A stretch of 64,000 nt of DNA from a virus (IMGVR_UViG_3300014208_000004:30260-94259), one strand, 5' to 3'. Numbered from the stretch's first letter, positions 43,714 through 62,703 are shown. Notes: a model not told the origin generated them from the letters alone. Numbers and translations are program-made.

Positions 43714-43728
43714 CCAGAGGACACCACC

Positions 43729-44526
43729 ATGGAAGAAAACTTCAAAAAACTTTCCGAAAGATTAAATATTCAACTTGCAGCAATTGCAGTTGAAGTAAAA
43801 TTATTAGTCAAACATTCCGAACTTGATACCGCCAATATTGGATTCACACCAAACCAAAAAGAAGTAGTTGGAGAGATGAAAGCAAACATTATGCTTTCAT
43901 ATCGACACTTGGAAGATGCACATCACAGACTTTCACGAGTGCAGGAACTTCATTCAACGATAGAGACATACTATCCAACAATGCATCCTGAAGAAAGTTC
44001 AGAATTAGAAGAAAGCACAGAATTAAACGACTTACTATTCAGCCAAAGATTCTTCGAAGGGAAAATTGATGGGGAAGGAGTAATTGTAGATTCGTTAATT
44101 GGCAAACCAATAAAGTACGGAGATAAAGAAATTGGGATGATTGAATCAGCAATATTAATCGGTGAGATAATTCAGTACAAAGCACGAATTTATAAAAAAT
44201 CCGAAGAACTATTCAAATCAATAACCGAGTTTCCAAAGATATTTCCATCAATTGGATTTAGTATTGAAGAACCAATCTTGAATAAAAAAAGAAATATTGA
44301 AACAGAACAAAATTTCATTGTTGTCAATGGCAGAAAAATAGCATGGGATAAGGATGAAATATCCTACGAAACGTTAATGGTATTAGTGGGATATAAAATC
44401 GATGATATTGTAAGCGTAACATTTAGTAGAGGATGGATTCCAAGCGAAGGGATTCTTTATCCTAATAAAACAGTACCGACAATAACGGGGATGTCATTTT
44501 CTGCAGTCATTACAGGAAATGCATAA
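43729..44526 (+). CDS. multidomain protein: helical hairpin N-terminus and C-terminal bacterial ubiquitin-like (Multi_ubiq-type) domain
   Basis: IVVNGRK....DEISYETL..L....SVTFSRG...EGIL.P..TV....GMSFSAVITGNA. Confidence 0.65.
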   Translation: MEENFKKLSERLNIQLAAIAVEVKLLVKHSELDTANIGFTPNQKEVVGEMKANIMLSYRHLEDAHHRLSRVQELHSTIETYYPTMHPEESSELEESTELNDLLFSQRFFEGKIDGEGVIVDSLIGKPIKYGDKEIGMIESAILIGEIIQYKARIYKKSEELFKSITEFPKIFPSIGFSIEEPILNKKRNIETEQNFIVVNGRKIAWDKDEISYETLMVLVGYKIDDIVSVTFSRGWIPSEGILYPNKTVPTITGMSFSAVITGNA

Positions 44527-44551: not shown

Positions 44552-47500
44552 ATGAATCATATTTTCTTTGCCGAGCCAATCAGCAACGAAAAGATAATAA
44601 AAGGAACAATCCTACACACCACACAGCAACCAAACACACTTCCAGTATTAGCCAGCGAACACGAACACACGACAATAGAAAATAGAACTTATCTTTTAGT
44701 TGATAAACAACCCCTTGAATTTCTAGGTGCAGTCCCGAAAAAAAACTCAGGACTTTCCCGGATATTCAAGTCCATGAACACCATTGTAGAAATTACTGCA
44801 CTCAATGAAGTAATTGAAACAAGTACCAACTGGATACGCAAGGGCATCCAATGCAACAAGGGAATTATCATTAAAGTAGGAAAAGATATTGCAGTTGTAC
44901 GAGATCCAATTGGAAGCATCATTCCTTATAAAATCAGTTCATTACAACCAGTAGAAATACTGGACACCGATGCAATCTTAAAAGCCCATTCCTTTGCAAT
45001 TGAAATACAAAAGGCAATTGCAACAGGCCAGAACTTCCCTGGATTAAATCAGCAAGCAACCGAAGGAACGACCAAACAATTTGGAGTAAATGACACCCGC
45101 CGACTTGGGAGAGGCAAGGACGGTAAACTCAGATGGATGGATGCAGACGAATATGCAAAAGAAGTATCCAGCCGTCAGGGAAAACAACAACCAGCCCAGA
45201 CCACAAGACAATTCAAAGTAGGAGAAACAATTCACTTCAAAGGGGAAGAAGTAAAAGTTATCGATCATTCCGATAAAGTTGTGGCATATAAAAAAGCCGA
45301 TGGAAGCACGGGAACATTCGAAGCGAATTCATACAAGGAAGATTCCGAGGATAAGAACGCCGAGGGCAAAGCAAAAGCAATGACCCTTGGGAACTTCAAT
45401 GCAAAGAAGAAACCCGCCGAGGCCGCAAAAGAATTTGGAGAGAACAAGCCTTCAGCAATCAGCCACGAAGCACCCCCCAACGCATGGTATAAAGAACACC
45501 AACGGATCATTGACACGGAAACGGCAACGCCCGAGTACGAGGAATTTGTCAAGAACGCCGAAGCCAACGGTTACCATAAGAACGGAAACTTTGAGTATTC
45601 CAAAGAAGTGAAATACAAAGATACAGACGGAAATATTTCTATCAATAAGACCCTTGAACTTTCAAAGTTTTACAACACCGAAACAAAGAAAACAGACTTC
45701 AGCATTGATGGAGTGCAGACCAAGGTTACATATGATGGAAAAGAATATGACCTTGCAGATTTAGATGGAAAAGATTTATCTGGAATGACCATCAGAAACG
45801 AAGACGGTATTGAACAGAAAATCAATAAGTATGACTTGGATAAATACCAAGGCAATATCAAAATTGATGAGAATGGGAAAGCAACTATTATCCAGCAAGG
45901 AAAAGATATTGGAGAATTCATTCCAGAAGCAAATATCACTCAGGAGGATTTGCTAAAAGAAGGAACGCTCAAAATTATCGGGGATGAAATTTGGAAGCGA
46001 ACAAAAACCGGAGATGGAGTATCATTCAACGATACACTTCTAGGACGAGTGGATAAAGGCATTGCATTCTACAAACACGGAAACGAAGTGGGAATTGTGT
46101 CCGATGGATATACTACCAACATTGCAAACCGTAACAACGTACGAAGACCCAGCACTCAGGCCGTAAAAGATACCGAGATTCAAAAGCGCATAAGAAAAGA
46201 AACCGCCAAACTAAAAGAAGAAGGTAAATCACGGCAGGACGTTGACAGTGTTAAAGCACGGATCGAAATTGAAAATAGTCCTTCACTGGAAAAGAAGGGC
46301 AAGTCAATTGATACCGCAGACTATGAAGACGTAATCAATACTTTTATTCCCGACAAAGAAACCATAGCGCAAGTTGCGAACAGTTATGGTACGGAAGAAT
46401 GGAAAGCAAATATCAAAGCTCTGGCCGAGCAAATGAAAGTTACGGACGTTCAGAGGGCAAATGAAATTGATGCATTCAATAAAATGAGTAAGAACGGGAT
46501 ATTGAAAGATGCACCACAGGAGAGGAACGCTTCAGAATATCTTGACAGTGCCAAGGAGTTACTTGAGAATAAATATCGGGAATTCAAACGTGAACAGTTA
46601 AACGAAAAAATTTCATCCAGAAAACAAGGGGACACGAAAACAAAATTTGAACGTGGAGAACTTGCAGAGATACCGGTTAATGCAAAAGCCGTCAGTTCTA
46701 AAACAATGCGTATCCGAGATAGTGAAGAAAACACCTATCAAGTAACGTACGCAGTTGTACCAATGAATGATGTAATCCAGAGCCACGAAAGCACGGGAGA
46801 AGAACACGCCGACCACCCCAAGGAACTACAAGCGAGGAACCGTAAGACCGAAGGTTCTAAAAAACAAATGGGAGAAATTGCTTCACAGATTGATGAACGA
46901 GTGACCGAAGATTCAGCCGATGCAAACCGAGGAGCACCAGTTGGATATTCCAAGGATGGGAAAGTTTATATCGCTCAGGGCAACGGACGAACTGCAGGAA
47001 TTAAAGGTTCAACAGGAGATGCACGAGATACATATTTTGGATTGATGGTACGTAAGGCAGCAGAATTGGGAATGCGTACCAAGGACATCCAGCCCACGGA
47101 CATGCTAGTCAGAGTCTTGACACCGAAACACACCTATCAGGATGCAATCACTTTAGGAGCCGACCAAGACACGCCAGCAATGCCATACACAGAAGTAGAA
47201 CGAACTAGGGCTTTCCAAAATAAAAACCCGCAAGGACTTTTAGAGGCAGGACAAAATATTAATATGAAGTCCATTGGCAACAAGCCGATCAATGAAACAA
47301 ATGTTGCAAGTTGGATAAGTGACAACCCGGAAATCTATAAGAAAATACTTGCACAAACAGGAAAGCAACGAGCGCATATTGAAACCAGCCCAAAGTTACA
47401 AAGCGAGGCAATCAATATTGCGATGATGGCACAACTCAAACCAGACTTCATTGATGATATATCGGCACGGGACACCCGCACACACGACCTAGTAAAAACC

Positions 47501-50500
47501 GTCACGCCATCACTAGTAGAAAATCAGAAACTTATTGCTGAAGGAAAACTCCCAGAGAACGCCGACCTACAAAATATTTTTCACAACGTTATCAAAACGT
47601 ATGATTCAATTGACAGCAACACCAAGTCATTGATGAATATTAAAAATGGTCAAAGTGATTTTCTCAATGATGATGAGAACACCGCCGATGCAAACTCCCT
47701 ACTTCATAAAATGAAGCAAGAACATTTGTTCAGCACCACGGGGAAGGAAGAAAGCACATTCAGAGACCCGTTAAAGGTTATCGGAATGATTGCCTACCAA
47801 CAGGCAATGAAGCCACGGGATAACGAAGTAGCACGACAACAAGCATACACACAATACGCACTCAAAACAAAACGATTTGCCGAGGCAATCAAAACCCTAG
47901 ATACAAACCAATCGGATATATTTGGGAGCCAGTTAAACCCAGAGGAGCAAAAGAAAGAGAACAATAAAAAACTTATCCAGATTGCAGAACGAGTATTCCT
48001 TGAAAACAAACCCTACCAATCGGGGACGGAAGAACTATCAGCCGATGAACAAGAAGCAAGCAAAGAGCAATTTGCAAAATTCGATGTATACGGCAAGATG
48101 AAGAAGATCGCTGATAAGTACGGATTCAAACTAGTAGGAGAAGAAGAACCAGAGACGATCCTAAAGTCCATGGTAAACTATTTTCTCAATTATCGCTACA
48201 ACCGGGAAGTGAAAGAAATTCAATCCTTCATTGCGAAAGGGAAGCAACTTGGTCTATTCCCAGCAGTGCCAAAAGCACCAGCAACTCCCAAGGTTCCTTC
48301 AGCGACAAAACCAACCACAGGATTGAACTGGAATAAATCCCAAGGGCAGGAAAAACCAGGGCACAAATATTTACGGAGAGAAAAAGGCAAGAGCGGGAAA
48401 TGGGAATATATTTACGAGGAGCCGACAGGCAGACAATATGCCACGGATGAGAAGGGCACGGAACTTCCAAAGCATCGGAACTGGGAGCAAGGCACGGAAG
48501 TGATCCACAACGGGGAAAAAGTTTCCATCCATGAAATGAGCGATAACATTGTAGCACTCAAGAAAAAGAATGGAGACATCTATACCGCCAATGTGAAAGA
48601 CGTTGATACCTTCCATGGCCGACAGAAGAATTTACGCAAACAGATGACAGGATTGAACGTTTCCAAGCCAACACCAAAATGGGACGAACTCATACTGAAA
48701 TTGAATTCCGATCTTGAACAGGGAAGCAAGTCAGGACAATTTGAATTTGCAGACAACAAAGCGGAGTTAGAACGGAAAATAAAATATGCGGAAGATGAGA
48801 GAAATAAAATTAGACAAAAAGTGTCCAGAGAAGAATCAACGGAGAAGCCCACACCAGTAACCGAAACACCAGCATTTGATAATTCAAAAGATATTACTCT
48901 TTCTCATTTAGCAAACGATCTTAATGAAAAATATAAAATCGCTAAAGACATAGAATTTGAGATGTCTTTTTTTGATTTGCAAGATATAGAAGATGTAAAA
49001 AAAGGTTTTCAGAAAACATCGGAAGTGCTAAAAATTCCAATAAAAAAAGTTGAAGAACTATATTATTCAAGAAAAGAAACACATCAAAAATTAAAGGATA
49101 TAATTGCAAAAGATTTGAATAAAAACTACGGGACTAAACTTAAAAAGACAGATAGTGGTAATTATTATTACAAGTCCTCATTTCTACCACGCAGTGACAA
49201 TAAAATATTTTATAAACTTCTTGATCTACAGCAGAAACTTGCAAATGAAAAATCAAAAAAGTTTCTTAAAAATGAAAACATAAAAGTACAACTCAAAAAT
49301 CTTAAATCTATAGGAACTTCTTCAAAGTCTTCAAACTATTACCAATTTCCATCAGGTAAAACAATAAGAATAAGCGATCATTCCCCTGATGGCTATTGGA
49401 TTACCCAGCCAGGACACTCACATGATTATTATGTTGAAGTAAAATGGAACAGTGATTTGAATAAAGTTAAAGATGAATTATTTGATATATTAAAAACAGA
49501 AAACTTATTTGCTCTGAAGGAAAAAGATATTACAAAATCTTTCTTCCAACGCCTATTCCCAATTCTCAAATCCCAACTCGGAATGTTTGGAGTAAAATCA
49601 ACAAAGGGACTTCCATCAAAACAGAAGAAACAATTTAATCCCGATGTAAAATTTAACGAAGTTCAAGAAGGACAAACAAAGAACTTCAACGCGAACGACA
49701 AGCGAGTATTGAAGCGCGGAGCGTTTGGGAAAATGAGATGGTTCAACGCCGATGCAACGGAAGCACATCAACAAGGACTATTTGACAAGACCAAAACAGT
49801 TGACCACGTAAAGCATCAACAACACGTAGAGGAAGTTTCCCAAAAAATAGAAGACACCCATATAGATTCTCATAGTGGACAAAGCGACTATCAAATGACA
49901 GTTAAGCAAAAAGGTAAGGTTATTGCTAAACTTGAATATTCCGAATTTGAGAAAACTCCACATATTAATATGATTGAAGTATCAAAGGATCATCAGCGAA
50001 AAGGACTTGCTAAAAAACTCATTTACAACCTTCAAAAAAAATATCCCAACAAAACGATTCAATGGGGAATGATGACGGATGAGGGAAGCGCATTGAGAAA
50101 TTCTCTAAAGAAAACTTTTATTCAAAATCCAGAGTATAAAAAGTTAGCGGATGAATTAGAATTGTTAAGAAAAAAACAAAGCGAGATGCAAATACAATTT
50201 GATGACTTTACAGAGAACAGCAAAAATTGGAATAAGGAAGATCGAGAGAAAAAACGTCAAGAATTGCCAGATGATTCTTTTAATGAAATAACGGATAAGA
50301 TTTATGATATTGAAAAACAAATAGAGGATTTATCTGAAGGAGAAGAAATAATTGATACAGAAGAACCAAAACCCGATTTCCCAATGCCAGAACCGAAGGA
50401 GATAGTTGCAAAACCAGTCACAGCAGTCAAACTGAAAAACGGAGAAGTAGTAACAGATGATAAAGCAAAGATTCACGCTCAGATGGAAAATGTAAACTGG

Positions 50501-52213
50501 GATGAAGTTGATACAACTGGATTTGTTATCGGAGGAGAATATAAAGAGAATGGAAAATCCGAACTTGGAGAGCAAGCACGAGCCAAGAAAGAACGTGATG
50601 AAGCGAGAGAAAAGAAAATATCCAAACCAAAAGAATTAACCCTATACCGAGGAGGCAAGAACGGTAATTGGTATACACCCGATAAATCGGCAGCCAAGGA
50701 ATATTCAACATTGGATCAGGATGGAAAACTTGAAAAGAAAAACTTCACTTTCAATAAACTTGCAGAAAAGGAAGATATACTTTCAACAGCCGAGGAATTA
50801 GGATTGACCGATGCAAAAGAACAAGCATTGTATTGGTTAGTAAGTCCAGAAACCTATCATGGAGCCGATAAAATAATATCAGCATTAAAGGAAAAGGGAT
50901 TTGATGCAGTTCACCTACCTATAGGGGAAGATTTTTCACCAGAAGGAAAAGCAATTGAATCTTACATGTTGCTTAAAGATGCAGACCAAGAAAAATCCAA
51001 CGGCATCACAGAGACCGAAGCATTTAAGAAATGGTTCCAAGGTTCCAAGGTAGTAGATGAGAATGGGAAACCATTAAGAGTATTTCATGGAACCACAAAT
51101 AATTTTTCTGAACTTGGATACGATAATCTAAAAGATATTGATGCATTTTGGTTTACCGAAGACTTGAATTATGTGAATAATTTTGCAGGAGAAAAAGAAG
51201 GGTCAAACGTAATGCCAGTTTATCTAAAAATAGAAAATCCTGGAACCCAAGAAGATTTCAATGAGATTAGTAATGAGTATGATGAAAAAGTAAAAAATAT
51301 TATAGATACCGATGATGAAATATCATTCTCGAAAATGGCAAAAGAAAAAGGATTTGACGGATTTATTATAGGACATACATCGGAAAAAGATAAGGTATTT
51401 GTTGCGCTAGATTCAGAACAAATAAAATCAGCGACAGGAAACGCAGGGACATTCGATCCTACAAATCCCGACATTACAAAGTCAATTAATCAGGTTACAG
51501 AATTCATTAAAAACTTATTCCAAGCACGAGAGGAAACAAACACCAATCCAAGCGAAGCACAAAAAGAAGCCGGCAACTACAAAAAGGGTACGGTAACACT
51601 CCACGGATTAGAGATAGCAATCGAAAATCCAAAAGGATCATTCCGAAGCGGGAAAGACCACAACGGCAAAGAGTGGAAAGTGAAGATGACTGCAGACTAT
51701 GGTTACTTCAAAGAGAAGAATGCAGACAGCGTACAGATCAAAGGAAAAGACAAAGATGAAATTGATGTATTCATAGGAAGCGATCCTGAGAGCGAAAAAG
51801 TATTTATCGTTAATCAAATAAACCCAGCGACAAAAGTATTTGACGAGCACAAAGTCATCATTGCAACACCGGACGAAAAGAGAGCACTAAAACTTTATAA
51901 AGGAAGTTACTCCGATGATGCAATAAAACGAATTGGAAGCATTGTAGAAATGGATATGGAAGAATTCAAAGAGTGGCTATACAACGGCGATAAAACAACG
52001 GCAGTAAAACAGAAGAAAGTAAATGCTATGGAAACTCAAGAACATCCAGAAAGTGGTATCATTAAAAAACTTCAATCACAAATTGAAACACTAATGAATA
52101 AAGTCAGCAATCAAGACAAACCCAAAAAAGGACAAACAATTAAAACCGTAACATTCACACGGGATGATAAAGGCAGAATAACAGGAGCCACAATCAAAGA
52201 ACAAAATAAATAG
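44552..52213 (+). CDS. giant polyvalent protein (DdrB-type ParB-like, GNAT, two ART-like and inorganic-pyrophosphatase-like domains)
   Basis: QSH...LQARNR...GAPV...QGNGRT; IEVSKDHQRKGLA; LYRG...WYT; AFKKWFQGSKVVDENGKPLRVFHGT...QIKSATGNAGTFD; QKEAGNYKKG...IENPKGS.RSG...DYGY...IDVF. Confidence 0.85.
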   Translation: MNHIFFAEPISNEKIIKGTILHTTQQPNTLPVLASEHEHTTIENRTYLLVDKQPLEFLGAVPKKNSGLSRIFKSMNTIVEITALNEVIETSTNWIRKGIQCNKGIIIKVGKDIAVVRDPIGSIIPYKISSLQPVEILDTDAILKAHSFAIEIQKAIATGQNFPGLNQQATEGTTKQFGVNDTRRLGRGKDGKLRWMDADEYAKEVSSRQGKQQPAQTTRQFKVGETIHFKGEEVKVIDHSDKVVAYKKADGSTGTFEANSYKEDSEDKNAEGKAKAMTLGNFNAKKKPAEAAKEFGENKPSAISHEAPPNAWYKEHQRIIDTETATPEYEEFVKNAEANGYHKNGNFEYSKEVKYKDTDGNISINKTLELSKFYNTETKKTDFSIDGVQTKVTYDGKEYDLADLDGKDLSGMTIRNEDGIEQKINKYDLDKYQGNIKIDENGKATIIQQGKDIGEFIPEANITQEDLLKEGTLKIIGDEIWKRTKTGDGVSFNDTLLGRVDKGIAFYKHGNEVGIVSDGYTTNIANRNNVRRPSTQAVKDTEIQKRIRKETAKLKEEGKSRQDVDSVKARIEIENSPSLEKKGKSIDTADYEDVINTFIPDKETIAQVANSYGTEEWKANIKALAEQMKVTDVQRANEIDAFNKMSKNGILKDAPQERNASEYLDSAKELLENKYREFKREQLNEKISSRKQGDTKTKFERGELAEIPVNAKAVSSKTMRIRDSEENTYQVTYAVVPMNDVIQSHESTGEEHADHPKELQARNRKTEGSKKQMGEIASQIDERVTEDSADANRGAPVGYSKDGKVYIAQGNGRTAGIKGSTGDARDTYFGLMVRKAAELGMRTKDIQPTDMLVRVLTPKHTYQDAITLGADQDTPAMPYTEVERTRAFQNKNPQGLLEAGQNINMKSIGNKPINETNVASWISDNPEIYKKILAQTGKQRAHIETSPKLQSEAINIAMMAQLKPDFIDDISARDTRTHDLVKTVTPSLVENQKLIAEGKLPENADLQNIFHNVIKTYDSIDSNTKSLMNIKNGQSDFLNDDENTADANSLLHKMKQEHLFSTTGKEESTFRDPLKVIGMIAYQQAMKPRDNEVARQQAYTQYALKTKRFAEAIKTLDTNQSDIFGSQLNPEEQKKENNKKLIQIAERVFLENKPYQSGTEELSADEQEASKEQFAKFDVYGKMKKIADKYGFKLVGEEEPETILKSMVNYFLNYRYNREVKEIQSFIAKGKQLGLFPAVPKAPATPKVPSATKPTTGLNWNKSQGQEKPGHKYLRREKGKSGKWEYIYEEPTGRQYATDEKGTELPKHRNWEQGTEVIHNGEKVSIHEMSDNIVALKKKNGDIYTANVKDVDTFHGRQKNLRKQMTGLNVSKPTPKWDELILKLNSDLEQGSKSGQFEFADNKAELERKIKYAEDERNKIRQKVSREESTEKPTPVTETPAFDNSKDITLSHLANDLNEKYKIAKDIEFEMSFFDLQDIEDVKKGFQKTSEVLKIPIKKVEELYYSRKETHQKLKDIIAKDLNKNYGTKLKKTDSGNYYYKSSFLPRSDNKIFYKLLDLQQKLANEKSKKFLKNENIKVQLKNLKSIGTSSKSSNYYQFPSGKTIRISDHSPDGYWITQPGHSHDYYVEVKWNSDLNKVKDELFDILKTENLFALKEKDITKSFFQRLFPILKSQLGMFGVKSTKGLPSKQKKQFNPDVKFNEVQEGQTKNFNANDKRVLKRGAFGKMRWFNADATEAHQQGLFDKTKTVDHVKHQQHVEEVSQKIEDTHIDSHSGQSDYQMTVKQKGKVIAKLEYSEFEKTPHINMIEVSKDHQRKGLAKKLIYNLQKKYPNKTIQWGMMTDEGSALRNSLKKTFIQNPEYKKLADELELLRKKQSEMQIQFDDFTENSKNWNKEDREKKRQELPDDSFNEITDKIYDIEKQIEDLSEGEEIIDTEEPKPDFPMPEPKEIVAKPVTAVKLKNGEVVTDDKAKIHAQMENVNWDEVDTTGFVIGGEYKENGKSELGEQARAKKERDEAREKKISKPKELTLYRGGKNGNWYTPDKSAAKEYSTLDQDGKLEKKNFTFNKLAEKEDILSTAEELGLTDAKEQALYWLVSPETYHGADKIISALKEKGFDAVHLPIGEDFSPEGKAIESYMLLKDADQEKSNGITETEAFKKWFQGSKVVDENGKPLRVFHGTTNNFSELGYDNLKDIDAFWFTEDLNYVNNFAGEKEGSNVMPVYLKIENPGTQEDFNEISNEYDEKVKNIIDTDDEISFSKMAKEKGFDGFIIGHTSEKDKVFVALDSEQIKSATGNAGTFDPTNPDITKSINQVTEFIKNLFQAREETNTNPSEAQKEAGNYKKGTVTLHGLEIAIENPKGSFRSGKDHNGKEWKVKMTADYGYFKEKNADSVQIKGKDKDEIDVFIGSDPESEKVFIVNQINPATKVFDEHKVIIATPDEKRALKLYKGSYSDDAIKRIGSIVEMDMEEFKEWLYNGDKTTAVKQKKVNAMETQEHPESGIIKKLQSQIETLMNKVSNQDKPKKGQTIKTVTFTRDDKGRITGATIKEQNK

Positions 52214-56387: not shown

Positions 56388-56519
56388 ATGACTAAGAATG
56401 ACCGAGCAAAACGACAGATACAAAAATTTGTAGCAACCAAGAAACGTCAGGCATTCGGCAACAAGCGACAAATCAAAGGACTGATTAAACTCAGTAAACT
56501 CCAACGAGGTATGAAATGA
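56388..56519 (+). CDS. small basic protein (43 aa)
   Basis: Hand-translated MTKNDRAKRQIQK...; coupled on both sides. Confidence 0.45.
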   Translation: MTKNDRAKRQIQKFVATKKRQAFGNKRQIKGLIKLSKLQRGMK

Positions 56520-59500
56520 ATTTCTTCCAAAGACTATTCCGCAAATCACAACTTGACATGTTCACAGCGTCAACACCGAAGAAAACAACAGGGCTAAACT
56601 TTGACAAACCAAAGACCGATAAAGAAGCGCGAATAGGAGACTTGAAAAGTGAGAACGGAAAGTATTACATATTTCTTGAAACTACAATTGGGAAACCACG
56701 ATGGCATACACACGCCGAGTTACACCAGATGGCAAAAGAAGGGAAACCGATACCGGAGATAGCGAAGAAGAAAATTCCATCACTGAAAAAGGTTGAAGAA
56801 GATAAATCAAAAGAACCGATTGCAAAACACGGAGATAAAATTCGTTTTACCGATGATGAACATAAAGCGGAATGGATTGTTCAAAATTCACAAATTAACA
56901 AAGAAGGTAAAAGGGAATACGAAATAAAATACGATAACGGTGAGAAAGGAAAAGATCATACCATCTTTAAGACTTGGGTAGAACAAGATGACATTACATC
57001 TATCAATGGTAAAAACTTAAATCAAAAAGAAAAAGAAGCATACGAATTATCAGTTGATGAATATATTAATAAACTTAACAGTTCAAGAATTCCTAATGGA
57101 TTAACACCAATCAGTAAAAACAAAAATGATAAGTCTTATCAACTTGCAAAGAACTCACATAAGATCAGAACACAGCAAGCTATATCTGAGGGCAAAGAAG
57201 TTTCACCAAAAGCAATTAATGACCACGAGGATATAAAAAAAATTGAAGATGCTAAATCTTCATTATTTAGTCAGAGCAATAAAGAAAAAGCCGATCCATT
57301 ATCCGAAGCCGTTAATAAAAAAGTCAACGATAAAAAAAATCAAGAAGAAAGAAACCATAGGGTATTTGTCGTTCATAAGAGCAACAAGCCAACCACGGAA
57401 CATGAGAACTTGACCGAAGAAGAAGCAAAACAAATTTACGAGAAATATAAAACCGATGCAGATTCAGAGATCACAACATGGAATAAAAGCATTTATAACG
57501 ACCATGGGAAAGTAACTTCAATTCCTACGGTTAAAATGCATGTCAATAAAACAAAAGAAGAACCAGCCGAACCCCAGGAGAAGAAAGAATATAAATTTAC
57601 AACAACCAATGAATTCCTTAAATCAAAAGGATTAACGGAAGCCACAGCAAAAAAACTATCAATTGATAGAAAAGTAGAACTTTCAAAAGAATATGAACAG
57701 TTACAAAACAATGAAAGCAAATCAGCTCAGGAAGAATTCAAACAAAAATCACTTGAAGAAAAAGAGCAACGCCGATTAGAACAGGAAAAAAACAACAAGC
57801 AATTTGAAGATCAATTACAGATGGATGAAAAAGACCAAAGCATTGAAGACCGTATTGATGCAAAAATAAATGATAAACGTCCATTGACCCCAGAAGAACA
57901 AAAGTTTTTTGATGAAAACCAATACGCACCAACTGGATTCAAATATGACTCTCAGGGGAACCTTATCAAACAGGAAACGACACCAGCCGAACCCAAACAC
58001 AAAGAATTAGAAGATAATTCTTTTGATTCGTTATCAGAAGATGCAAAACAAAGAGCATATAAAGACTATAAAAAAAATTCTACCAACGCTGATACATTTG
58101 AAGGATTCTCTCAAGCAATGAAGGGAGTAGAATTTAATAAAGATGGTACCGTCATAGAACCCGAACACAAAGTAGGTGACACGAAACAAGAAGACGGCCA
58201 CACATACCGACTCAATGAAAACCATCGATGGGAAAGAGTGGATGAAGACAAAAAAGAAGAACATCCAACATTTGAAGTAGGGGAGAAAGCAACATTTACC
58301 AGCAAGGATGGAAAAGAGTATGAAGTAAATTTCCGTGGATACAACGGGGATAAAGCCGTCATTGTAGGAAAGCCAAAAGACAAAATAGATCAAATGGAAG
58401 TTGATATATCTCAGTTAAAAAAAATAGCAAAAGAGGAATCGAAACCAGAACCAACCGAACCAAAGCAAGAAGAAAATCAATTCGATGCAAAAGCATTGAA
58501 AGAAAAACTATTATCATTAAAACCAAAATTGAAGTTCCTAAATGCAGATGAACGTAAAGCAATGGAGAAACTTGCTGAAAGAACATCCAGCGCAAAGAAC
58601 TCTCAAGAGAAGTTGGAAGTAGCAAAAGATATTGATGCATTCCTTACCGCAATTGATAAGAACATCGAAGACAAAGCCCAACGGGATAGAATGGTCAATC
58701 CAACCCTACACGCAAAGAAGGAAGATATTCATACAATAGTTGAACAGAAATTGGACGAGAAACAAGAAAATAAATCCTTCAAAGATGCAGGTAAAAGAGT
58801 AGGGGGATCAAAAAAGGAAATGGCAGCAATCAGGGCTATTACTTCAACAGACCTTGACAACATGGACAATGCAACAGCTTTCAAAGTTGTAACCAAGGAC
58901 AGGATACTCCCAGACATTGACGTAGAGCAACGGCGATTAGACGGAGAAGATGCAGGGCTAGTATTCCTAAAGAAAAAACTCCACGAGGCAGTAAGTGCAA
59001 AGCCAGCCAATAATCCTGAAGCACGAAAAGCATACGTAGAACTTATTCCAAAACTATTTGAGAAAATTGATGCAGCCAAGTCCATAGATGAAATAGATGA
59101 TATTGGACGAAACACTTTTGAACGATTATATTCATACCGAGGAGGAAACAAAGTATTTTTAATCGGCAGTAAAGATACCGTAGTAGAAGATTATCTGGGG
59201 AAAACATTCCTTAATCTGATTGCTAAGAATACAGATTCAGCAGCAGAAAATTGGAGCAAAGCAATTTTATACGATGCATTCCCAGAAAAACTATCCAGAG
59301 AAAAATACGAAAAATATATAGAGGCTAGAACCAATAACATTAAAGAAACAAAAGAGCGACTTGCAACACGTACCCCGGAAGAATGGGAACGAGAAACGAA
59401 AGATGATTACATGGTAAAATATACCTTCAACGGTAATCAGTTGAATAAAATGAAAAAAGAAGAACCGGATAAATACGCAAAACTTATCCAGGATCATAAG

Positions 59501-60727
59501 GATAGGGTATACAAAAAATTAGATAACAGTCTTCTTTCATTTGAGAACTGGATTAAAGACAGACCACGTTATGCACCACGACAATCCGACTGGACATGGA
59601 ACGAAAAGAAAGAACGGCAAGCAACCGATAGAGCACAAGGAGAAATGAAGATACACGACAATCCACCCCTTGCATATATTAAGCGAGTGAACGGTAGAGA
59701 AGTTAAAAATTCAGATGTAACACCAGAGGCAATCAAAAATAATTTGGGATTCAACTCTGTACAATTTGGAAACTATGTAAAAGATGAAGAAGCCAAAGAG
59801 CATGTAAAACATTTCATTGCAAGCATCTATGATTTAGAAGATGCACTTGGAATAGATATGACAAAAATAAATAAGATGGGTAATCTATCCATGGCATTTG
59901 GAGCACGGTGGAGCGGAAAAGCAGGAGCGCATTATGAATCAATGGCAAAGATTATTAATCTCACAAAAACAAACGGCGATGGAGCAGTAGCACATGAATT
60001 TCATCACTACTTTGACCATCTCTTTGCGGGAATGAAAGAAACAGGTACACGGGACAATATGTTTTTATCGCATCAAAAATCCAACGATACACCAATTGGT
60101 AAAGCGATGAATAAAGTCATGGATGCAATTTATAAAGGGGACTATGTAGAAGAAAAAGTATTTGAACCAGACGGGAAACATTCTTATCCATCGATAAAAA
60201 GAACGTACGACCAAAAAGGATTGCAGGGAGCAATTGAAGAAATAAAACGCTATAGGTTCAACGCTGATTATTATAAATATCTTGCAAAACTAGAGGGGAA
60301 GCCAATTACAATTCCAATCGGAACAAGCACAACAAGATTTAATAAGAACGCACAAAATTTTAAGAGCGACTATTGGAGCCGTCCATTAGAATTATTTGCA
60401 CGAGCAACGGAATCATTTATCCAGGACAAGTTAGAAGAAAAAGGGATGTACAACAATTATCTTGTCAGTGGAAACGATGTAACAAAACCAGATGGAAAAT
60501 GGGATGCAGTATCATTGGGATTAACATATCCCCAGGGAGAAGAACGAAAGAAGATCAACGCAGCGATTGATGAACTTTGGAAAGTAGCAATCAAAGAATT
60601 AAATATTGGACAGGATAAACCAAAGGAAGGAAAACGAGTAACATCGGAAGTGAAGATTGAAAAGTCATTCAATGCCACAATTCATATATTCAATTTATCA
60701 AAACGATTTACATTCAACGGACGATAA
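56516..60727 (+). CDS. large polyvalent protein with zincin-like HExxH and LPD1-like domains
   Basis: DAGKRVGGSKKE, GFNSVQFGNYV, AFGAR, AGAHYE, AHEFHHYFDH, YWSRPLELFARATESFI, YPQGEERKKI. Confidence 0.82.
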   Translation: MNFFQRLFRKSQLDMFTASTPKKTTGLNFDKPKTDKEARIGDLKSENGKYYIFLETTIGKPRWHTHAELHQMAKEGKPIPEIAKKKIPSLKKVEEDKSKEPIAKHGDKIRFTDDEHKAEWIVQNSQINKEGKREYEIKYDNGEKGKDHTIFKTWVEQDDITSINGKNLNQKEKEAYELSVDEYINKLNSSRIPNGLTPISKNKNDKSYQLAKNSHKIRTQQAISEGKEVSPKAINDHEDIKKIEDAKSSLFSQSNKEKADPLSEAVNKKVNDKKNQEERNHRVFVVHKSNKPTTEHENLTEEEAKQIYEKYKTDADSEITTWNKSIYNDHGKVTSIPTVKMHVNKTKEEPAEPQEKKEYKFTTTNEFLKSKGLTEATAKKLSIDRKVELSKEYEQLQNNESKSAQEEFKQKSLEEKEQRRLEQEKNNKQFEDQLQMDEKDQSIEDRIDAKINDKRPLTPEEQKFFDENQYAPTGFKYDSQGNLIKQETTPAEPKHKELEDNSFDSLSEDAKQRAYKDYKKNSTNADTFEGFSQAMKGVEFNKDGTVIEPEHKVGDTKQEDGHTYRLNENHRWERVDEDKKEEHPTFEVGEKATFTSKDGKEYEVNFRGYNGDKAVIVGKPKDKIDQMEVDISQLKKIAKEESKPEPTEPKQEENQFDAKALKEKLLSLKPKLKFLNADERKAMEKLAERTSSAKNSQEKLEVAKDIDAFLTAIDKNIEDKAQRDRMVNPTLHAKKEDIHTIVEQKLDEKQENKSFKDAGKRVGGSKKEMAAIRAITSTDLDNMDNATAFKVVTKDRILPDIDVEQRRLDGEDAGLVFLKKKLHEAVSAKPANNPEARKAYVELIPKLFEKIDAAKSIDEIDDIGRNTFERLYSYRGGNKVFLIGSKDTVVEDYLGKTFLNLIAKNTDSAAENWSKAILYDAFPEKLSREKYEKYIEARTNNIKETKERLATRTPEEWERETKDDYMVKYTFNGNQLNKMKKEEPDKYAKLIQDHKDRVYKKLDNSLLSFENWIKDRPRYAPRQSDWTWNEKKERQATDRAQGEMKIHDNPPLAYIKRVNGREVKNSDVTPEAIKNNLGFNSVQFGNYVKDEEAKEHVKHFIASIYDLEDALGIDMTKINKMGNLSMAFGARWSGKAGAHYESMAKIINLTKTNGDGAVAHEFHHYFDHLFAGMKETGTRDNMFLSHQKSNDTPIGKAMNKVMDAIYKGDYVEEKVFEPDGKHSYPSIKRTYDQKGLQGAIEEIKRYRFNADYYKYLAKLEGKPITIPIGTSTTRFNKNAQNFKSDYWSRPLELFARATESFIQDKLEEKGMYNNYLVSGNDVTKPDGKWDAVSLGLTYPQGEERKKINAAIDELWKVAIKELNIGQDKPKEGKRVTSEVKIEKSFNATIHIFNLSKRFTFNGR

Positions 60728-61092: not shown

Positions 61093-61179
61093 GAATTATT
61101 AAAAACTAACCTAATTTCTATAATTCCAACATTGTATTTTTGTTCTGTAAGTTTTACCACAAACACAATCTTTGAGACA

Positions 61180-62703
61180 ATGCAAAATACCCCGTTCAAA
61201 ATTTTTGGAAACGTAGAAATAATCAAAGCCGTATCTTCAAATCCATTGGATGGATTTAGGATCAGAGGAGTAGTTTTACGTAAAGCAAAAGATGAACAAG
61301 GTGAGACTCCAATGATGGACAAGATGGACTGGAGTTATTTTGATAAAACTCAAAACTTACTTTACGAACACAAACCCGCAACAATCACAATTGACAAATC
61401 GAAGAACACAACTTCAATCACTGCAAACGTCCCAGAGCCGGAAGATTATATCGGCAAAGTATTAAGCCGTACACGCAGTGCCGATGGAGCAAATGAAATC
61501 ATTGAAGCCCAACTGTACCCGAGCAATAAGAAAGCTCAGGACATTGTTAAGATGATGAAAGATATTGAACTCATTAACAAACAATATCCGAAGCAACAGA
61601 AGACAATTGGATTTTCAATTGAGGCAGTCCCGATCCAAAAAACTGTAAATGGAAAATATGCAGACAAGAACGGGAATTACGCCGGCAAAGTTATCAGCAT
61701 TGTAGTTTCACCAACACCGCAAGATGCAGGGACATACGCAGAAATAATGGAACACGAAAATAATAAAATTGCAAAATCATTGAGTGCAGGGTATGATGTT
61801 AATCCAGCGACAATGACAGACGGAGAAGCATTAAAGAAAGAAAGTTTAATAAGTAATAAAAAATCACAAACCAAAGGAGTAAGAACCATGCGTAAATACA
61901 AATCTATCCAAGATGCACATACCGAGTGCATTACAAAAGGCATGAAAGGTAAAGAAGCACAAGACGAAGCGACACGCTTGTGGAATGCACAATTGGCAGA
62001 AGAAGCCAATACGGTTACCGGATCAATTGAAAAGGGAATCGATGCAGCACTTTCTTTCATCAAAAAATCTTTTGAGCCGATCAATGCATTACTTGCCCGG
62101 ACATCGGAAGTTGAAACAAGTCTTATCCGAGCAGACATTGAAATCAAAAAATCTTTTGCGAATTACGAAGCATCAACAGAAGATCAGCCATTTGACGGCG
62201 GAGCAGCCGTTGTAGCAATTCAAAAAAGTGTCTACGGACTGCAGACCGAACAAAACATCAGCAACCAATCAATTGCAAAAGCGATGATTGCACAATCAGA
62301 AGCAATGCAAGAACTTTTTGGAATTGTAAAAAGTATGGCAACACAACTTTCAACAATCCAGGGTACCAGCGATGATACCATTAACCGTGTAACCGCAATC
62401 ATGCAGGGAGTTAAAAAATCTGTAGCAGGATCGACCACCGACCCAGCAGTATTGCGAACTCTTTCAGTTGATTCAAAACAAACTGAACTGAATGAAACAG
62501 ACCGGATTATCAAAGGCATTCCAGTAAAACGGATTGAACGATTCCTTGTAGACCGGGGGGAACAACTCGGACGAGAACAAGGTGCTGCATATTTCACTGC
62601 ACAGCAAAACTTTAAGGTGCAAGGATTGTCAGCAATCAACAAAGGGATGAGAAAAGAAATTGCTGATGCACTTGGAAGTTTTTCGTACGCAGTAGAAAAC
62701 TAG
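61180..62703 (+). CDS. prohead protease fused to scaffolding protein
   Basis: RIRGV....KDEQGE..MDWSYF...YEH, IGFSIE, VSPTP; helical C-half with many xxKS motifs; in-frame internal ATG 61888 with AAGGAG SD. Confidence 0.85.
   Translation: MQNTPFKIFGNVEIIKAVSSNPLDGFRIRGVVLRKAKDEQGETPMMDKMDWSYFDKTQNLLYEHKPATITIDKSKNTTSITANVPEPEDYIGKVLSRTRSADGANEIIEAQLYPSNKKAQDIVKMMKDIELINKQYPKQQKTIGFSIEAVPIQKTVNGKYADKNGNYAGKVISIVVSPTPQDAGTYAEIMEHENNKIAKSLSAGYDVNPATMTDGEALKKESLISNKKSQTKGVRTMRKYKSIQDAHTECITKGMKGKEAQDEATRLWNAQLAEEANTVTGSIEKGIDAALSFIKKSFEPINALLARTSEVETSLIRADIEIKKSFANYEASTEDQPFDGGAAVVAIQKSVYGLQTEQNISNQSIAKAMIAQSEAMQELFGIVKSMATQLSTIQGTSDDTINRVTAIMQGVKKSVAGSTTDPAVLRTLSVDSKQTELNETDRIIKGIPVKRIERFLVDRGEQLGREQGAAYFTAQQNFKVQGLSAINKGMRKEIADALGSFSYAVEN

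What the first reader, a model, noticed from the sequence alone, without database searches (positions are those of the whole stretch)
43729..44526. Phage protein ending in a bacterial ubiquitin-like domain, with a Tad1/Acb2-like hairpin at the other end
Seen: the last about 70 aa (44311-44523) fit the Multi_ubiq beta-grasp pattern but end TGNA, without a terminal Gly. The N-terminal helix MLSYRHLEDAHHRL echoes the ALTHVEEALMW helix of Tad1-type nucleotide sponges. The middle has LFKS and IGFSIE, the latter identical to the motif in this phage's prohead protease. Established: bacterial Ubl/E1/E2/JAB systems such as Bil conjugate Ubls to phage proteins. Inference: a decoy or inhibitor of host Ubl conjugation, possibly combined with a signal sponge, encoded just upstream of the giant head protein. 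No E1/E2 was recognised in this window.
Basis: partly seen in the sequence, partly recalled or inferred. Interest (0 to 1): 0.7.

Follow-up and report, generated by a model that had tools for sequence, protein, structure and literature searches.

The report
Phage hairpin fused to orphan BubA ubiquitin-like domain
A groundwater phage encodes a 265-residue protein that joins a self-pairing helical hairpin, common in uncultured phages, to a copy of BubA, the ubiquitin-like tag of bacterial "Bub" tagging operons. The phage has none of the tagging enzymes, so the protein is a good but untested candidate for jamming or exploiting a host pathway whose role is still unknown.

Summary
The ORF at 43729-44526 (+) is a real 265-aa gene with three parts.

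- **C-terminal domain (aa 194-265).** This is a BubA-type (Multi_ubiq) beta-grasp. A profile of its relatives hits E. coli ZDHYS365 Type II BubA (PDB 9cd2) at E 6.7e-14, and the predicted fold matches BubA structures (Z 8.6-9.5). The TGNA end is no anomaly. All 112 bacterial relatives retrieved end in Ser, and all 32 Ala-ending, mostly viral or metagenomic, relatives keep an invariant Thr at position -4.
- **N-terminal domain (aa 1-88).** This helical hairpin belongs to a large family of about 80-aa stand-alone proteins in viral contigs (motif ANIMLAYRHLEDA). Of 45 members, 33 hit Pfam Acb2_Tad1_hairpin weakly and one passes the cut-off. This protein itself does not hit, comparison with the T4 Vs.4 family is inconclusive, and the Acb2 ligand residues are absent. 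It is predicted to form dimers (score 0.80, best control 0.00).
- **Middle (aa 89-193).** It has no relatives.

The complete 94-kb phage has no E1, BubE or JAB. My best reading, untested, is a two-headed BubA mimic that blocks or diverts the dimeric host BubBD ligase. This scan has met orphan phage BubA genes, and this same fusion type, before on other DNA. I found no paper describing them.

The parts
43716..43721 (+). Shine-Dalgarno-like AGAGGA, 8-9 nt upstream of the ATG
   Evidence: read directly from the sequence
43729..44526 (+). whole ORF, 265 aa plus stop (P0001)
   Evidence: in the protein collection only as itself, on 2 contigs
43729..43992 (+). N-terminal helical hairpin, aa 1-88 (helices 5-28 and 41-81); member of the ANIMLAYRHLEDA family of viral contigs; predicted antiparallel dimer
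   Evidence: family; pLDDT 85-98; ipSAE 0.80, best control 0.00; weak PF24729 hits in relatives
43873..43929 (+). invariant core motif, aa 49-67 (E49, N53, L56, Y58 R59 H60 L61 E62 D63 A64, R67); lies on the predicted two-fold axis of the dimer
   Evidence: invariant columns in 45 sequences; contacts 60:60, 61:61, 64:64
43993..44307 (+). middle region, aa 89-193; no relatives, low-confidence fold; holds LFKS (44209) and IGFSIE (44251)
   Evidence: no hit covers it; pLDDT 46-65; no Pfam hit
44308..44523 (+). C-terminal BubA-type (Multi_ubiq) beta-grasp domain, aa 194-265
   Evidence: (own-family HMM 1.2e-34 over aa 196-265)
44512..44526 (+). free C-terminal tail T262-G-N-A265 and stop codon; positional equivalent of the T-D-K-S end of bacterial Type II BubA
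   Evidence: Thr at -4 is 100% in both groups; last residue is Ala in 32 of 32 and Ser in 105 of 105
44552..52213 (+). downstream neighbour: 2553-aa polyvalent protein (ddrB-ParB, GNAT, ART-PolyVal, InPase); context only
   Evidence: the same gene order is seen in relative L009

Best explanation
Shown: the gene encodes a modular phage protein.
- Its last 72 residues are a single beta-grasp domain of the Type II BubA kind. BubA is the ubiquitin-like tag of bacterial BubA-BubBD-BubE operons.
- The domain ends exactly where BubA ends. It keeps the invariant Thr at -4 and a small last residue, Ala where the bacteria have Ser.
- Its first 88 residues are a helical hairpin from a large family found in viral contigs.
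- The complete phage genome has no E1, BubE or JAB.

Predicted: the hairpin forms an antiparallel dimer through its invariant YRHLEDA helix.

Inferred: because the phage lacks the enzymes, the BubA-like domain can act only on or through the host's Bub machinery. Dimerisation would present two BubA-like heads. Bub E1 enzymes are homodimers that bind two BubA molecules. The protein could therefore act as a bivalent mimic that occupies the adenylation sites of host BubBD, or the BubA-binding site of BubE. That would block or divert host Ubl conjugation during infection, making it an anti-Bub counter-defence protein. The altered tail (G/S/D-N-A instead of D-K-S) could make it a dead-end or poorly transferred substrate.
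For: BubA kinship:
- Profile hit to PDB 9cd2 at E 6.7e-14.
- 160 PF14452 relatives.
- Fold matches to 9cd2, 9d59, 9d5b and 9eav_C at Z 8.6-9.5, and Foldseek rank 1.
- 16 shared core positions, including T262.

The bacterial relatives are Type II Bub. The plasmid operon reads CapH/CapP, Multi_ubiq, ThiF, DUF6527. The naming follows bioRxiv 10.1101/2024.11.21.623953 and 10.1101/2024.11.21.623966.

Orphan status: the complete 94,259-bp genome has no ThiF, DUF6527, Prok-JAB or RadC.

The Ala-ended type is mostly viral:
- 7 of 8 pattern hits in viral contigs are real Ubls, 5 of them stand-alone at 70-74 aa, one truncated by the contig end, and one fused to a MazG-like domain.
- Only 1 of 23 pattern hits in 185,579 species genomes is real.
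- 4 of 5 of those viral records lack ThiF and 5 of 5 lack DUF6527.
- On a tree the Ala-ended forms fall outside the tight Ser-ended bacterial group.

The fusion recurs: hairpin plus BubA-like domain also occurs in P0002, P0003, P0007 and P0010/L009.

Dimer: ipSAE 0.80 against a best control of 0.00. The runs agree in at least 89% of contacts and partner pLDDT is 81. In the calibration, 20 of 30 solved pairs and 1 of 23 single chains reached the mark.

From the papers: BubCD is a homodimer, and BubBD is predicted to be a dimer binding two BubA. Some bacterial Ubls have an N-terminal coiled coil followed by one beta-grasp, and one of those dimerises.
Against: - No binding or inhibition was tested.
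- The host is unknown (groundwater metagenome), so it is not known whether it has a Bub operon.
- Bub itself has not been shown to defend against phages (Discussion of 10.1101/2024.11.21.623953).
- A conserved, conjugation-like C-terminus fits a true substrate just as well as an inhibitor.
- The gene lies at the head of a structural and polyvalent-protein block, not in a typical early anti-defence cluster.
- Stand-alone hairpin genes sit beside terminase, portal and capsid genes, which also fits an assembly role.
- The dimer is a prediction made with my own alignment and four copies, which differs from the calibration.
Confidence: 0.4

Rival explanations
1. Hijacked modifier. The BubA-like domain is a true substrate. 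A host BubBD-type E1-E2 adenylates its C-terminus and conjugates the whole hairpin-carrying protein to host or phage proteins for the phage's benefit, or the protein acts as a sink that uses up the ligase.
For: - The C-terminus is conserved and free, with Thr at -4 and a small last residue as in conjugatable BubA.
- The Ser-ended E. coli BubA is conjugated in vitro without processing (10.1101/2024.11.21.623953).
- Diverse N-terminal 'cargo' domains are fused to the same Ubl: hairpin, MazG-like and others.
Against: - The phage has no E1 or E2.
- The tail differs from the bacterial D-K-S at positions -3 and -2 in most phage copies.
- No target is known.
Confidence: 0.15
2. Immune-signal sponge. 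The hairpin is the working part. Like Acb2 or Tad1, it oligomerises and sequesters a nucleotide alarm signal, and the Ubl domain is an accessory.
For: - 33 of 45 family members hit Pfam Acb2_Tad1_hairpin, the best above the cut-off.
- A protein-language-model search places an 'Anti-CBASS protein 2 family' cluster third at 0.86, which is a lead only.
- Self-association is predicted, with invariant polar residues (Y58, R59, E62, D63, R67) around a two-fold axis.
- The helix-2 motif LEDASMR resembles LKEASMW of Vs.4.
Against: - This protein's own N-domain gives no PF24729 hit.
- hhalign against the Vs.4 family gives 15% probability.
- A PDB profile search finds no Acb2 or Tad1.
- The conserved N-terminal Tyr and helix-1 Lys that bind cyclic dinucleotides in Acb2 (PMC10312549) have no conserved counterpart.
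- This protein has lost the family's MRLGK and DGGxSVYDK segments.
- Only dimers were predicted, not hexamers.
- This reading does not explain the conserved Ubl C-terminus.
Confidence: 0.15
3. Assembly or virion role unrelated to defence. The hairpin family is a small head or packaging accessory protein. Here the beta-grasp serves as a protein-binding module, for example to chaperone or load the neighbouring polyvalent protein.
For: - Stand-alone hairpin genes lie next to the large terminase (position -1 in 6 loci), a portal or adaptor-like gene (+1 in 5 loci), the small terminase and the major capsid protein.
- In this phage and in relative L009 the fusion lies between head genes and a polyvalent protein.
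- This genome has one hairpin copy only, so the fusion replaces the stand-alone form.
Against: - Gene position alone is weak evidence.
- Stand-alone Ala-ended Ubl genes in other phages lie in arrays of small accessory genes, not in head modules.
- An exactly conserved C-terminal tail matching a conjugation end is not expected of a mere binding module.
- L009 and this phage are probably related, so their shared gene order is not independent evidence.
Confidence: 0.2
4. Not a functional gene, or the domain likenesses are chance.
For: The full-length protein has no full-length relative other than itself, and the middle third has no relatives.
Against: - Both end domains have many significant relatives.
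- The alignment-based model is confident for both.
- The same two-domain build recurs in four other proteins.
- The gene has a ribosome-binding site and tight spacing in a gene array that all runs one way.
Confidence: 0.02

Closest known systems
Type II BubA, the Ubl of BubA-BubBD-BubE operons (formerly 6E.2/DUF6527); e.g. E. coli ZDHYS365 BubA, PDB 9cd2; Pfam Multi_ubiq PF14452
   Same: - Beta-grasp fold.
- Shared core positions: IxVNG, T-Y/F, G-x-L, G-M-x-F and Thr at -4.
- The domain ends at the protein's C-terminus with a small residue and no Gly.
   Different: - Encoded by a phage with no BubBD or BubE.
- The last residue is Ala, not Ser, and the tail is G-N-A, not D-K-S.
- It has one beta-grasp behind a hairpin and an unknown middle region, where E. 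coli BubA has three beta-grasps.
- The Ala-ended forms lie outside the tight bacterial group on the tree.
Bacterial CC-Ubl1 proteins: an N-terminal coiled coil followed by one beta-grasp, in Bil and Bub operons (Gong et al., bioRxiv 10.1101/2024.11.21.623966)
   Same: The build is the same: a helical self-associating N-terminus followed by a single C-terminal beta-grasp. One tested example is a homodimer.
   Different: Those proteins sit in operons with E1 and E2. Their coiled coils were not compared here with the phage YRHLEDA hairpin, because no sequences were at hand.
Acb2 (PaMx33 Acb2, T4 Vs.4) and Tad1 signal sponges; Pfam Acb2_Tad1_hairpin PF24729
   Same: - A two-helix hairpin of about 80 aa, encoded by phages and self-associating.
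- Family members give weak to borderline PF24729 hits.
- The second helix carries a similar L-[EK]-[DE]-A-S-M motif.
   Different: - This protein itself does not hit PF24729.
- The profile-profile comparison is inconclusive.
- The cyclic-dinucleotide-binding Tyr and Lys are not conserved.
- A dimer, not a hexamer, is predicted.
- It is fused to a Ubl.
Orphan phage BubA-like genes, and one hairpin-BubA fusion, noted earlier in this scan (e1-5376870, e1-5408378, e1-3286507, e1-5808040, e1-5898240, e1-5938094)
   Same: The same kind of thing: virus-borne BubA-type Ubl domains without conjugating enzymes. e1-5938094 describes the same hairpin family fused to BubA.
   Different: - Those are in other genomes.
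- The phage of e1-5938094 is said to carry BubE, and this one does not.
- Here the gene directly precedes a polyvalent protein.

Membership tests
BubA / Multi_ubiq (PF14452) Ubl domain | beta-grasp fold | tested here: met
   AlphaFold2 with an alignment gives pLDDT 84-98 for aa 195-265. Foldseek rank 1 is 9cd2. VIA-align gives Z 9.5 (rmsd 3.1, 70 aligned) to 9cd2 and Z 8.6-8.9 to 9d59, 9d5b and 9eav_C.
BubA / Multi_ubiq (PF14452) Ubl domain | sequence match to the family model above its curated cut-off | tested here: inconclusive
   Alone: 17.8 bits or 20.3 bits against a cut-off of 24.5. Through a profile of its relatives: 160 PF14452 proteins and 9cd2 at E 6.7e-14. Close relatives P0002, P0008, P0016, P0023, P0024 and L083 pass the cut-off.
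BubA / Multi_ubiq (PF14452) Ubl domain | family core residues and a free C-terminal tail with Thr at -4 and a small last residue | tested here: met
   16 consensus positions are shared. Thr at -4 is 100% in both groups. The last residue is Ala (32 of 32) or Ser (105 of 105). The ORF stops right after A265.
Type II Bub system (operon membership) | encoded with the BubBD (E2-E1, ThiF) and BubE (DUF6527) partners | tested here: not met
   The complete 94,259-bp genome has no ThiF, DUF6527, Prok-JAB or RadC match at E <= 1.
Type II Bub system (operon membership) | adenylation and conjugation of the C-terminus by BubBD | not testable with these tools
   This needs biochemistry. The host and its BubBD are unknown.
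Bil BilA / Type I BubA | conserved C-terminal Gly exposed by a JAB peptidase | tested here: not met
   The protein ends in Ala with no Gly at the end. The genome has no JAB. By sequence, only the Type II Bub structure was hit.
Acb2/Tad1 sponge (PF24729 hairpin) | match to the Acb2_Tad1_hairpin model above its cut-off | tested here: inconclusive
   This protein gives no hit. Of 45 family members, 33 hit at E <= 0.1, the best at 27.9 bits against a cut-off of 27. As a control, T4 Vs.4 scores 71.4 bits. hhalign against the Vs.4 family gives 15% probability.
Acb2/Tad1 sponge (PF24729 hairpin) | two-helix hairpin fold | tested here: inconclusive
   A hairpin is predicted with confidence, but it matches many unrelated hairpins at Z 8-9.5, which is within the background for helical models. 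Acb2 and Tad1 are not among the 50 rows shown.
Acb2/Tad1 sponge (PF24729 hairpin) | conserved ligand residues (Acb2 Y11 stacking, K26 salt bridge; PMC10312549) | tested here: not met
   The Vs.4 family keeps G-Y-x-P-H and K23 invariant. In the hairpin family the only conserved position before E49 is the nearly invariant R13. This rests on inspecting alignments, not on a structural superposition.
Acb2/Tad1 sponge (PF24729 hairpin) | hexameric assembly | tested here: inconclusive
   A four-copy prediction gave two antiparallel dimers (ipSAE 0.80, best control 0.00). Six copies could not be tried.

The most novel reading that the evidence does not exclude
This protein, and the Ala-ended orphan Ubl clade it belongs to, are the first phage inhibitors of the Bub ubiquitin-like conjugation pathway. 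A dimeric hairpin presents two BubA mimics that lock the homodimeric BubBD E2-E1 ligase. If so, this would give the first genetic evidence that Bub is an antiphage system, and a tool for finding its targets.
Probability: 0.3. Interest if true: 0.8.

Novelty: new variant of a known kind. Interest (0 to 1): 0.6.

Why it matters
Bub operons were shown in 2024 to be true conjugation pathways that run on oxyester chemistry. Their authors could not find a phage that they restrict, and the targets are unknown (bioRxiv 10.1101/2024.11.21.623953).

Phages often reveal what a host system does by carrying mimics of its parts. A clade of BubA-like domains found mostly in viral contigs, with a conserved but rewritten C-terminal tail and no enzymes, argues that phages meet Bub in nature. 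It also gives concrete reagents. The proteins can be added to the published BubA and BubBD assay, and phages that carry them, with their gene knockouts, can be used to look for Bub-dependent restriction.

The repeated fusion to a dimerising hairpin suggests a simple, testable mechanism: two mimic heads for a dimeric ligase. The finding also flags the ANIMLAYRHLEDA hairpin family. It has more than 100 viral loci and gave no tblastn match (two members used as queries) in 50,697 deposited phage genomes. It is a very conserved phage protein of unknown function at the edge of the Acb2/Tad1 family.

Tried and rejected
**Searches that found nothing or failed**
- tblastn and blastn of the protein and the locus against deposited phages found nothing.
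- The word-index protein search found only the protein itself.
- The search for related loci with the C-domain alignment failed for lack of a conserved stretch. I replaced it with a DNA pattern scan.
- The window has no tRNA, and the host stays unknown.
- No RNA holder was listed for the locus.
- Literature searches for PF14452, 9CD2 and a phage-encoded BubA found no paper on phage copies. The sponge-diversity preprint does not mention ubiquitin and its only 'fusion' is a SUMO2 expression tag.

**Structure and family comparisons**
- Single-sequence AlphaFold2 was useless (pLDDT 36).
- BFVD gave no significant match.
- In VIA-align wide, the N-domain matched only generic helical hairpins, and Acb2 and Tad1 were not among the rows shown.
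- PDB sequence searches with the hairpin profile, and with the best Pfam-scoring member, found no Acb2 or Tad1.
- hhalign against T4 Vs.4, alone or as a family, aligned a 15-21 residue stretch to helix 1 at 6-15% probability.

**Ideas dropped**
- The PADLOC PbeC hit in the middle region (E 1.1e-4, 19 bits) is an isolated weak helical match.
- IGFSIE and LFKS as protease sites rest on one shared hexapeptide and a common tetrapeptide. Nothing further supports them.
- I considered co-folding the Ubl domain with a stand-in BubBD. I dropped it because the host is unknown and the only BubBD at hand came from a locus that the fold tools refuse.

Full report
**The gene**

The window is the 3' two-thirds of a complete 94,259-bp phage genome with direct terminal repeats. 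The phage was recovered from groundwater metagenomes. All sizeable ORFs run on the + strand. ORF 43729-44526 encodes 265 aa. It has an AGAGGA ribosome-binding site 8-9 nt upstream and short gaps to both neighbours. Its GC content is 34%, against 37% for the window.

The downstream neighbour (44552-52213, 2553 aa) is a polyvalent protein with ddrB-ParB, GNAT, ART-PolyVal and InPase domains. A virion structural protein follows it, and then a second giant protein with an LPD1 domain.

**C-terminal domain**

Alone, the protein gives only a sub-threshold Pfam Multi_ubiq hit (E 0.004, 17.8 bits against 24.5). An exhaustive phmmer search of 1.84 billion representatives found 25 relatives. About 20 of them match only aa about 197-265. 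These are either 72-85-aa stand-alone proteins or the C-termini of 110-181-aa proteins. All but one end in T-x-x-A.

A profile of 13 of them (A2) retrieved 160 proteins, nearly all pre-annotated PF14452. It also hit one solved structure, E. coli ZDHYS365 'multi-ubiquitin domain protein' 9cd2, at E 6.7e-14.

The bacterial relatives end in T-[DN]-[KQR]-S. In the proteins then in hand, 112 ended in Ser and 25 in Ala.

In plasmids the gene overlaps a ThiF-family gene. In the Tritonibacter plasmid the order is HTH plus ImmA/IrrE regulators, Multi_ubiq, ThiF, DUF6527. That is a Type II Bub operon (BubA, BubBD, BubE) with CapH/CapP, as defined by Ye et al. (bioRxiv 10.1101/2024.11.21.623953) and Gong et al. 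(10.1101/2024.11.21.623966). Those authors showed that E. coli ZDHYS365 BubA is conjugated by BubBD with ATP in vitro. A terminal Gly is therefore not needed in this branch.

AlphaFold2 with a 74-row alignment gave a confident beta-grasp for aa 195-265. Foldseek ranked 9cd2 first. VIA-align gave Z 9.5 to 9cd2 and Z 8.6-8.9 to other BubA-type structures.

A column-by-column comparison of 32 Ala-ended and 105 Ser-ended domains shows 16 shared consensus positions. Thr at -4 is invariant in both groups.

**The Ala-ended clade is mostly viral, and orphan**

I scanned for the DNA pattern encoding G-M-x-F-x-[AV]-x-x-T-x-N-A-stop.
- In IMG/VR it found 8 loci. Seven encode real Ubls. Five of those are stand-alone at 70-74 aa, one is cut off by the contig end, and one is fused to a MazG-like domain.
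- In one genome each of 185,579 species it found 23 loci, of which only one is real, in a Pseudobdellovibrionaceae MAG.

Four of five of the viral records lack ThiF, and all five lack DUF6527. The stand-alone genes lie in arrays of small genes. Their neighbours include glycosyltransferase, HAD and HD-nucleotidase genes, and nothing like E1 or E2.

A quick, poorly resolved tree places the Ser-ended bacterial proteins in one tight group. The long-branched Ala-ended ones fall outside it. The end-residue label needs 2 changes on the tree, against 29 in shuffles.

This phage's own genome has no ThiF, DUF6527, Prok-JAB or RadC match.

**N-terminal domain**

Residues 1-85 matched five proteins in the exhaustive search. 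Four of them (P0002, P0003, P0007, P0010) have the same build, a hairpin followed by a BubA-like end. P0002 has two beta-grasps.

A scan of viral contigs with this domain confirmed 108 loci. All 80 fetched loci encode it, almost always as a 70-130-aa stand-alone protein ending soon after the motif GE..ANIMLAYRHLEDA.MRLGK.IQA.DGG.SVYDK. Twelve positions are invariant in 45 sequences. This protein keeps that core but has lost the MRLGK and DGGxSVYDK segments.

tblastn with two members found nothing in 50,697 deposited phage genomes.

Evidence for kinship with Acb2/Tad1:
- Of 45 members, 33 hit Pfam Acb2_Tad1_hairpin at E <= 0.1. The best scores 2.6e-6 and 27.9 bits, just above the cut-off, and no other family recurs.
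- A language-model search gave an Acb2-family cluster at rank 3, which is a lead only.

Evidence against kinship:
- This protein itself does not hit.
- PDB profile searches find no Acb2 or Tad1.
- hhalign against a 22-row T4 Vs.4 alignment reaches only 15% probability.
- The fold search returns only generic hairpins.
- The Tyr and Lys that bind cyclic dinucleotides in Acb2 (PMC10312549) are invariant in the Vs.4 family. They have no conserved counterpart here.

I therefore call the domain a remote relative at most, and do not file it as a sponge.

A four-copy prediction supports self-association as two antiparallel dimers. The invariant helix lies on the two-fold axis, with contacts 60:60, 61:61 and 64:64. 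The score was 0.80 against a best control of 0.00. The runs agreed in at least 89% of contacts, and partner pLDDT was 81. In the calibration, 20 of 30 solved pairs and 1 of 23 single chains reached the mark, and those counts hold only roughly here.

**Middle region and the minor motifs**

Residues 89-193 have no relatives, no Pfam hit and a low-confidence model. IGFSIE does recur in ORF 61132-62703. A single shared hexapeptide is within chance by my estimate, and that ORF had no Pfam hit.

**Context**

In L009, from a 93,986-bp viral contig and probably a relative, the gene order is head-maturation protease, fusion protein, small ORF, heptosyltransferase, small ORF. Then comes a protein of at least 1964 aa with ddrB-ParB and a RadC-like JAB domain. 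That resembles the order here.

Stand-alone hairpin genes often sit beside the large terminase, a portal or adaptor-like gene, the small terminase or the major capsid protein. This genome has a single hairpin copy, the fused one.

**Interpretation**

The following points are shown:
- The protein is modular, with an orphan BubA-type end.
- Its C-terminal tail is conserved and free.
- The same fusion recurs in other proteins.
- The phage has no conjugation enzymes.

The hairpin dimer is predicted, not shown.

The rest is inferred. The protein would act on the host's Bub machinery. Bub E1 enzymes are homodimers that take two BubA molecules, so the most economical mechanism is a two-headed mimic that blocks or diverts BubBD or BubE. 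I give this 0.4.

The rivals are a true hijacked substrate (0.15), a signal sponge with an accessory Ubl (0.15), an assembly or virion role (0.2) and a non-functional gene (0.02).

**Relation to earlier notes of this scan**

After reaching this reading I looked up earlier notes. Orphan phage BubA-like genes have been reported several times on other DNA. One note (e1-5938094) describes the same hairpin family fused to BubA. They agree with my results but are not independent proof. I found no paper describing phage-encoded BubA copies.

Noticed in passing
L083:5207-6531 (IMG/VR 393-kb phage with terminal repeats): A MazG-like domain is fused to an Ala-ended BubA-type Ubl (237 aa). Its gene overlaps an upstream YfbR-like HD 5'-deoxynucleotidase gene. 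The same jumbo phage has a ThiF-like ORF elsewhere (G001:C1:28693-29076), so it may be the one phage here with its own E1-like enzyme.
   Followed up: partly
L009:10255-16146: In a probable relative of this phage (93,986-bp contig), the polyvalent protein downstream of the hairpin-Ubl fusion carries a RadC-like JAB domain as well as ddrB-ParB. This window's phage has no JAB or RadC match.
   Followed up: partly
viral loci L001-L080: The ANIMLAYRHLEDA hairpin family is very conserved across at least 108 viral loci, with 12 invariant residues. It is usually a 70-130-aa stand-alone gene beside terminase, portal or capsid genes. tblastn with two members found no match in 50,697 deposited phage genomes.
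   Followed up: partly
window 44552-52213 and 56516-60727: There are two giant ORFs. The 2553-aa one has ddrB-ParB, GNAT, ART-PolyVal and InPase domains, so it is a polyvalent protein. The 1403-aa one has an LPD1 domain near its C-terminus.
   Followed up: partly
window 44098-44277 (aa 124-183): A weak PADLOC hit to PbeC (E 1.1e-4, 19 bits) lies in the otherwise unmatched middle region. It is probably a chance helical match.
   Followed up: no
window 44251 and 61606: The hexapeptide IGFSIE occurs in this protein and in ORF 61132-62703. No wider similarity was seen, and that ORF had no Pfam hit.
   Followed up: partly
L093:11082-11345 (T4 vs.4) compared with alignment A4: Both helices of T4 Vs.4 carry a D/E-A-x-x-[RW] motif (IKDAEVRLG and LKEASMWAC) that resembles HLEDASMRLG of the hairpin family. 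hhalign chose helix 1, while the Pfam model coordinates imply helix 2.
   Followed up: partly
L103:2079-2297 (Pseudobdellovibrionaceae MAG contig, 11.5 kb): This is the only Ala-ended Ubl found by the pattern in the species-genome collection. I did not determine whether it lies in a prophage.
   Followed up: no
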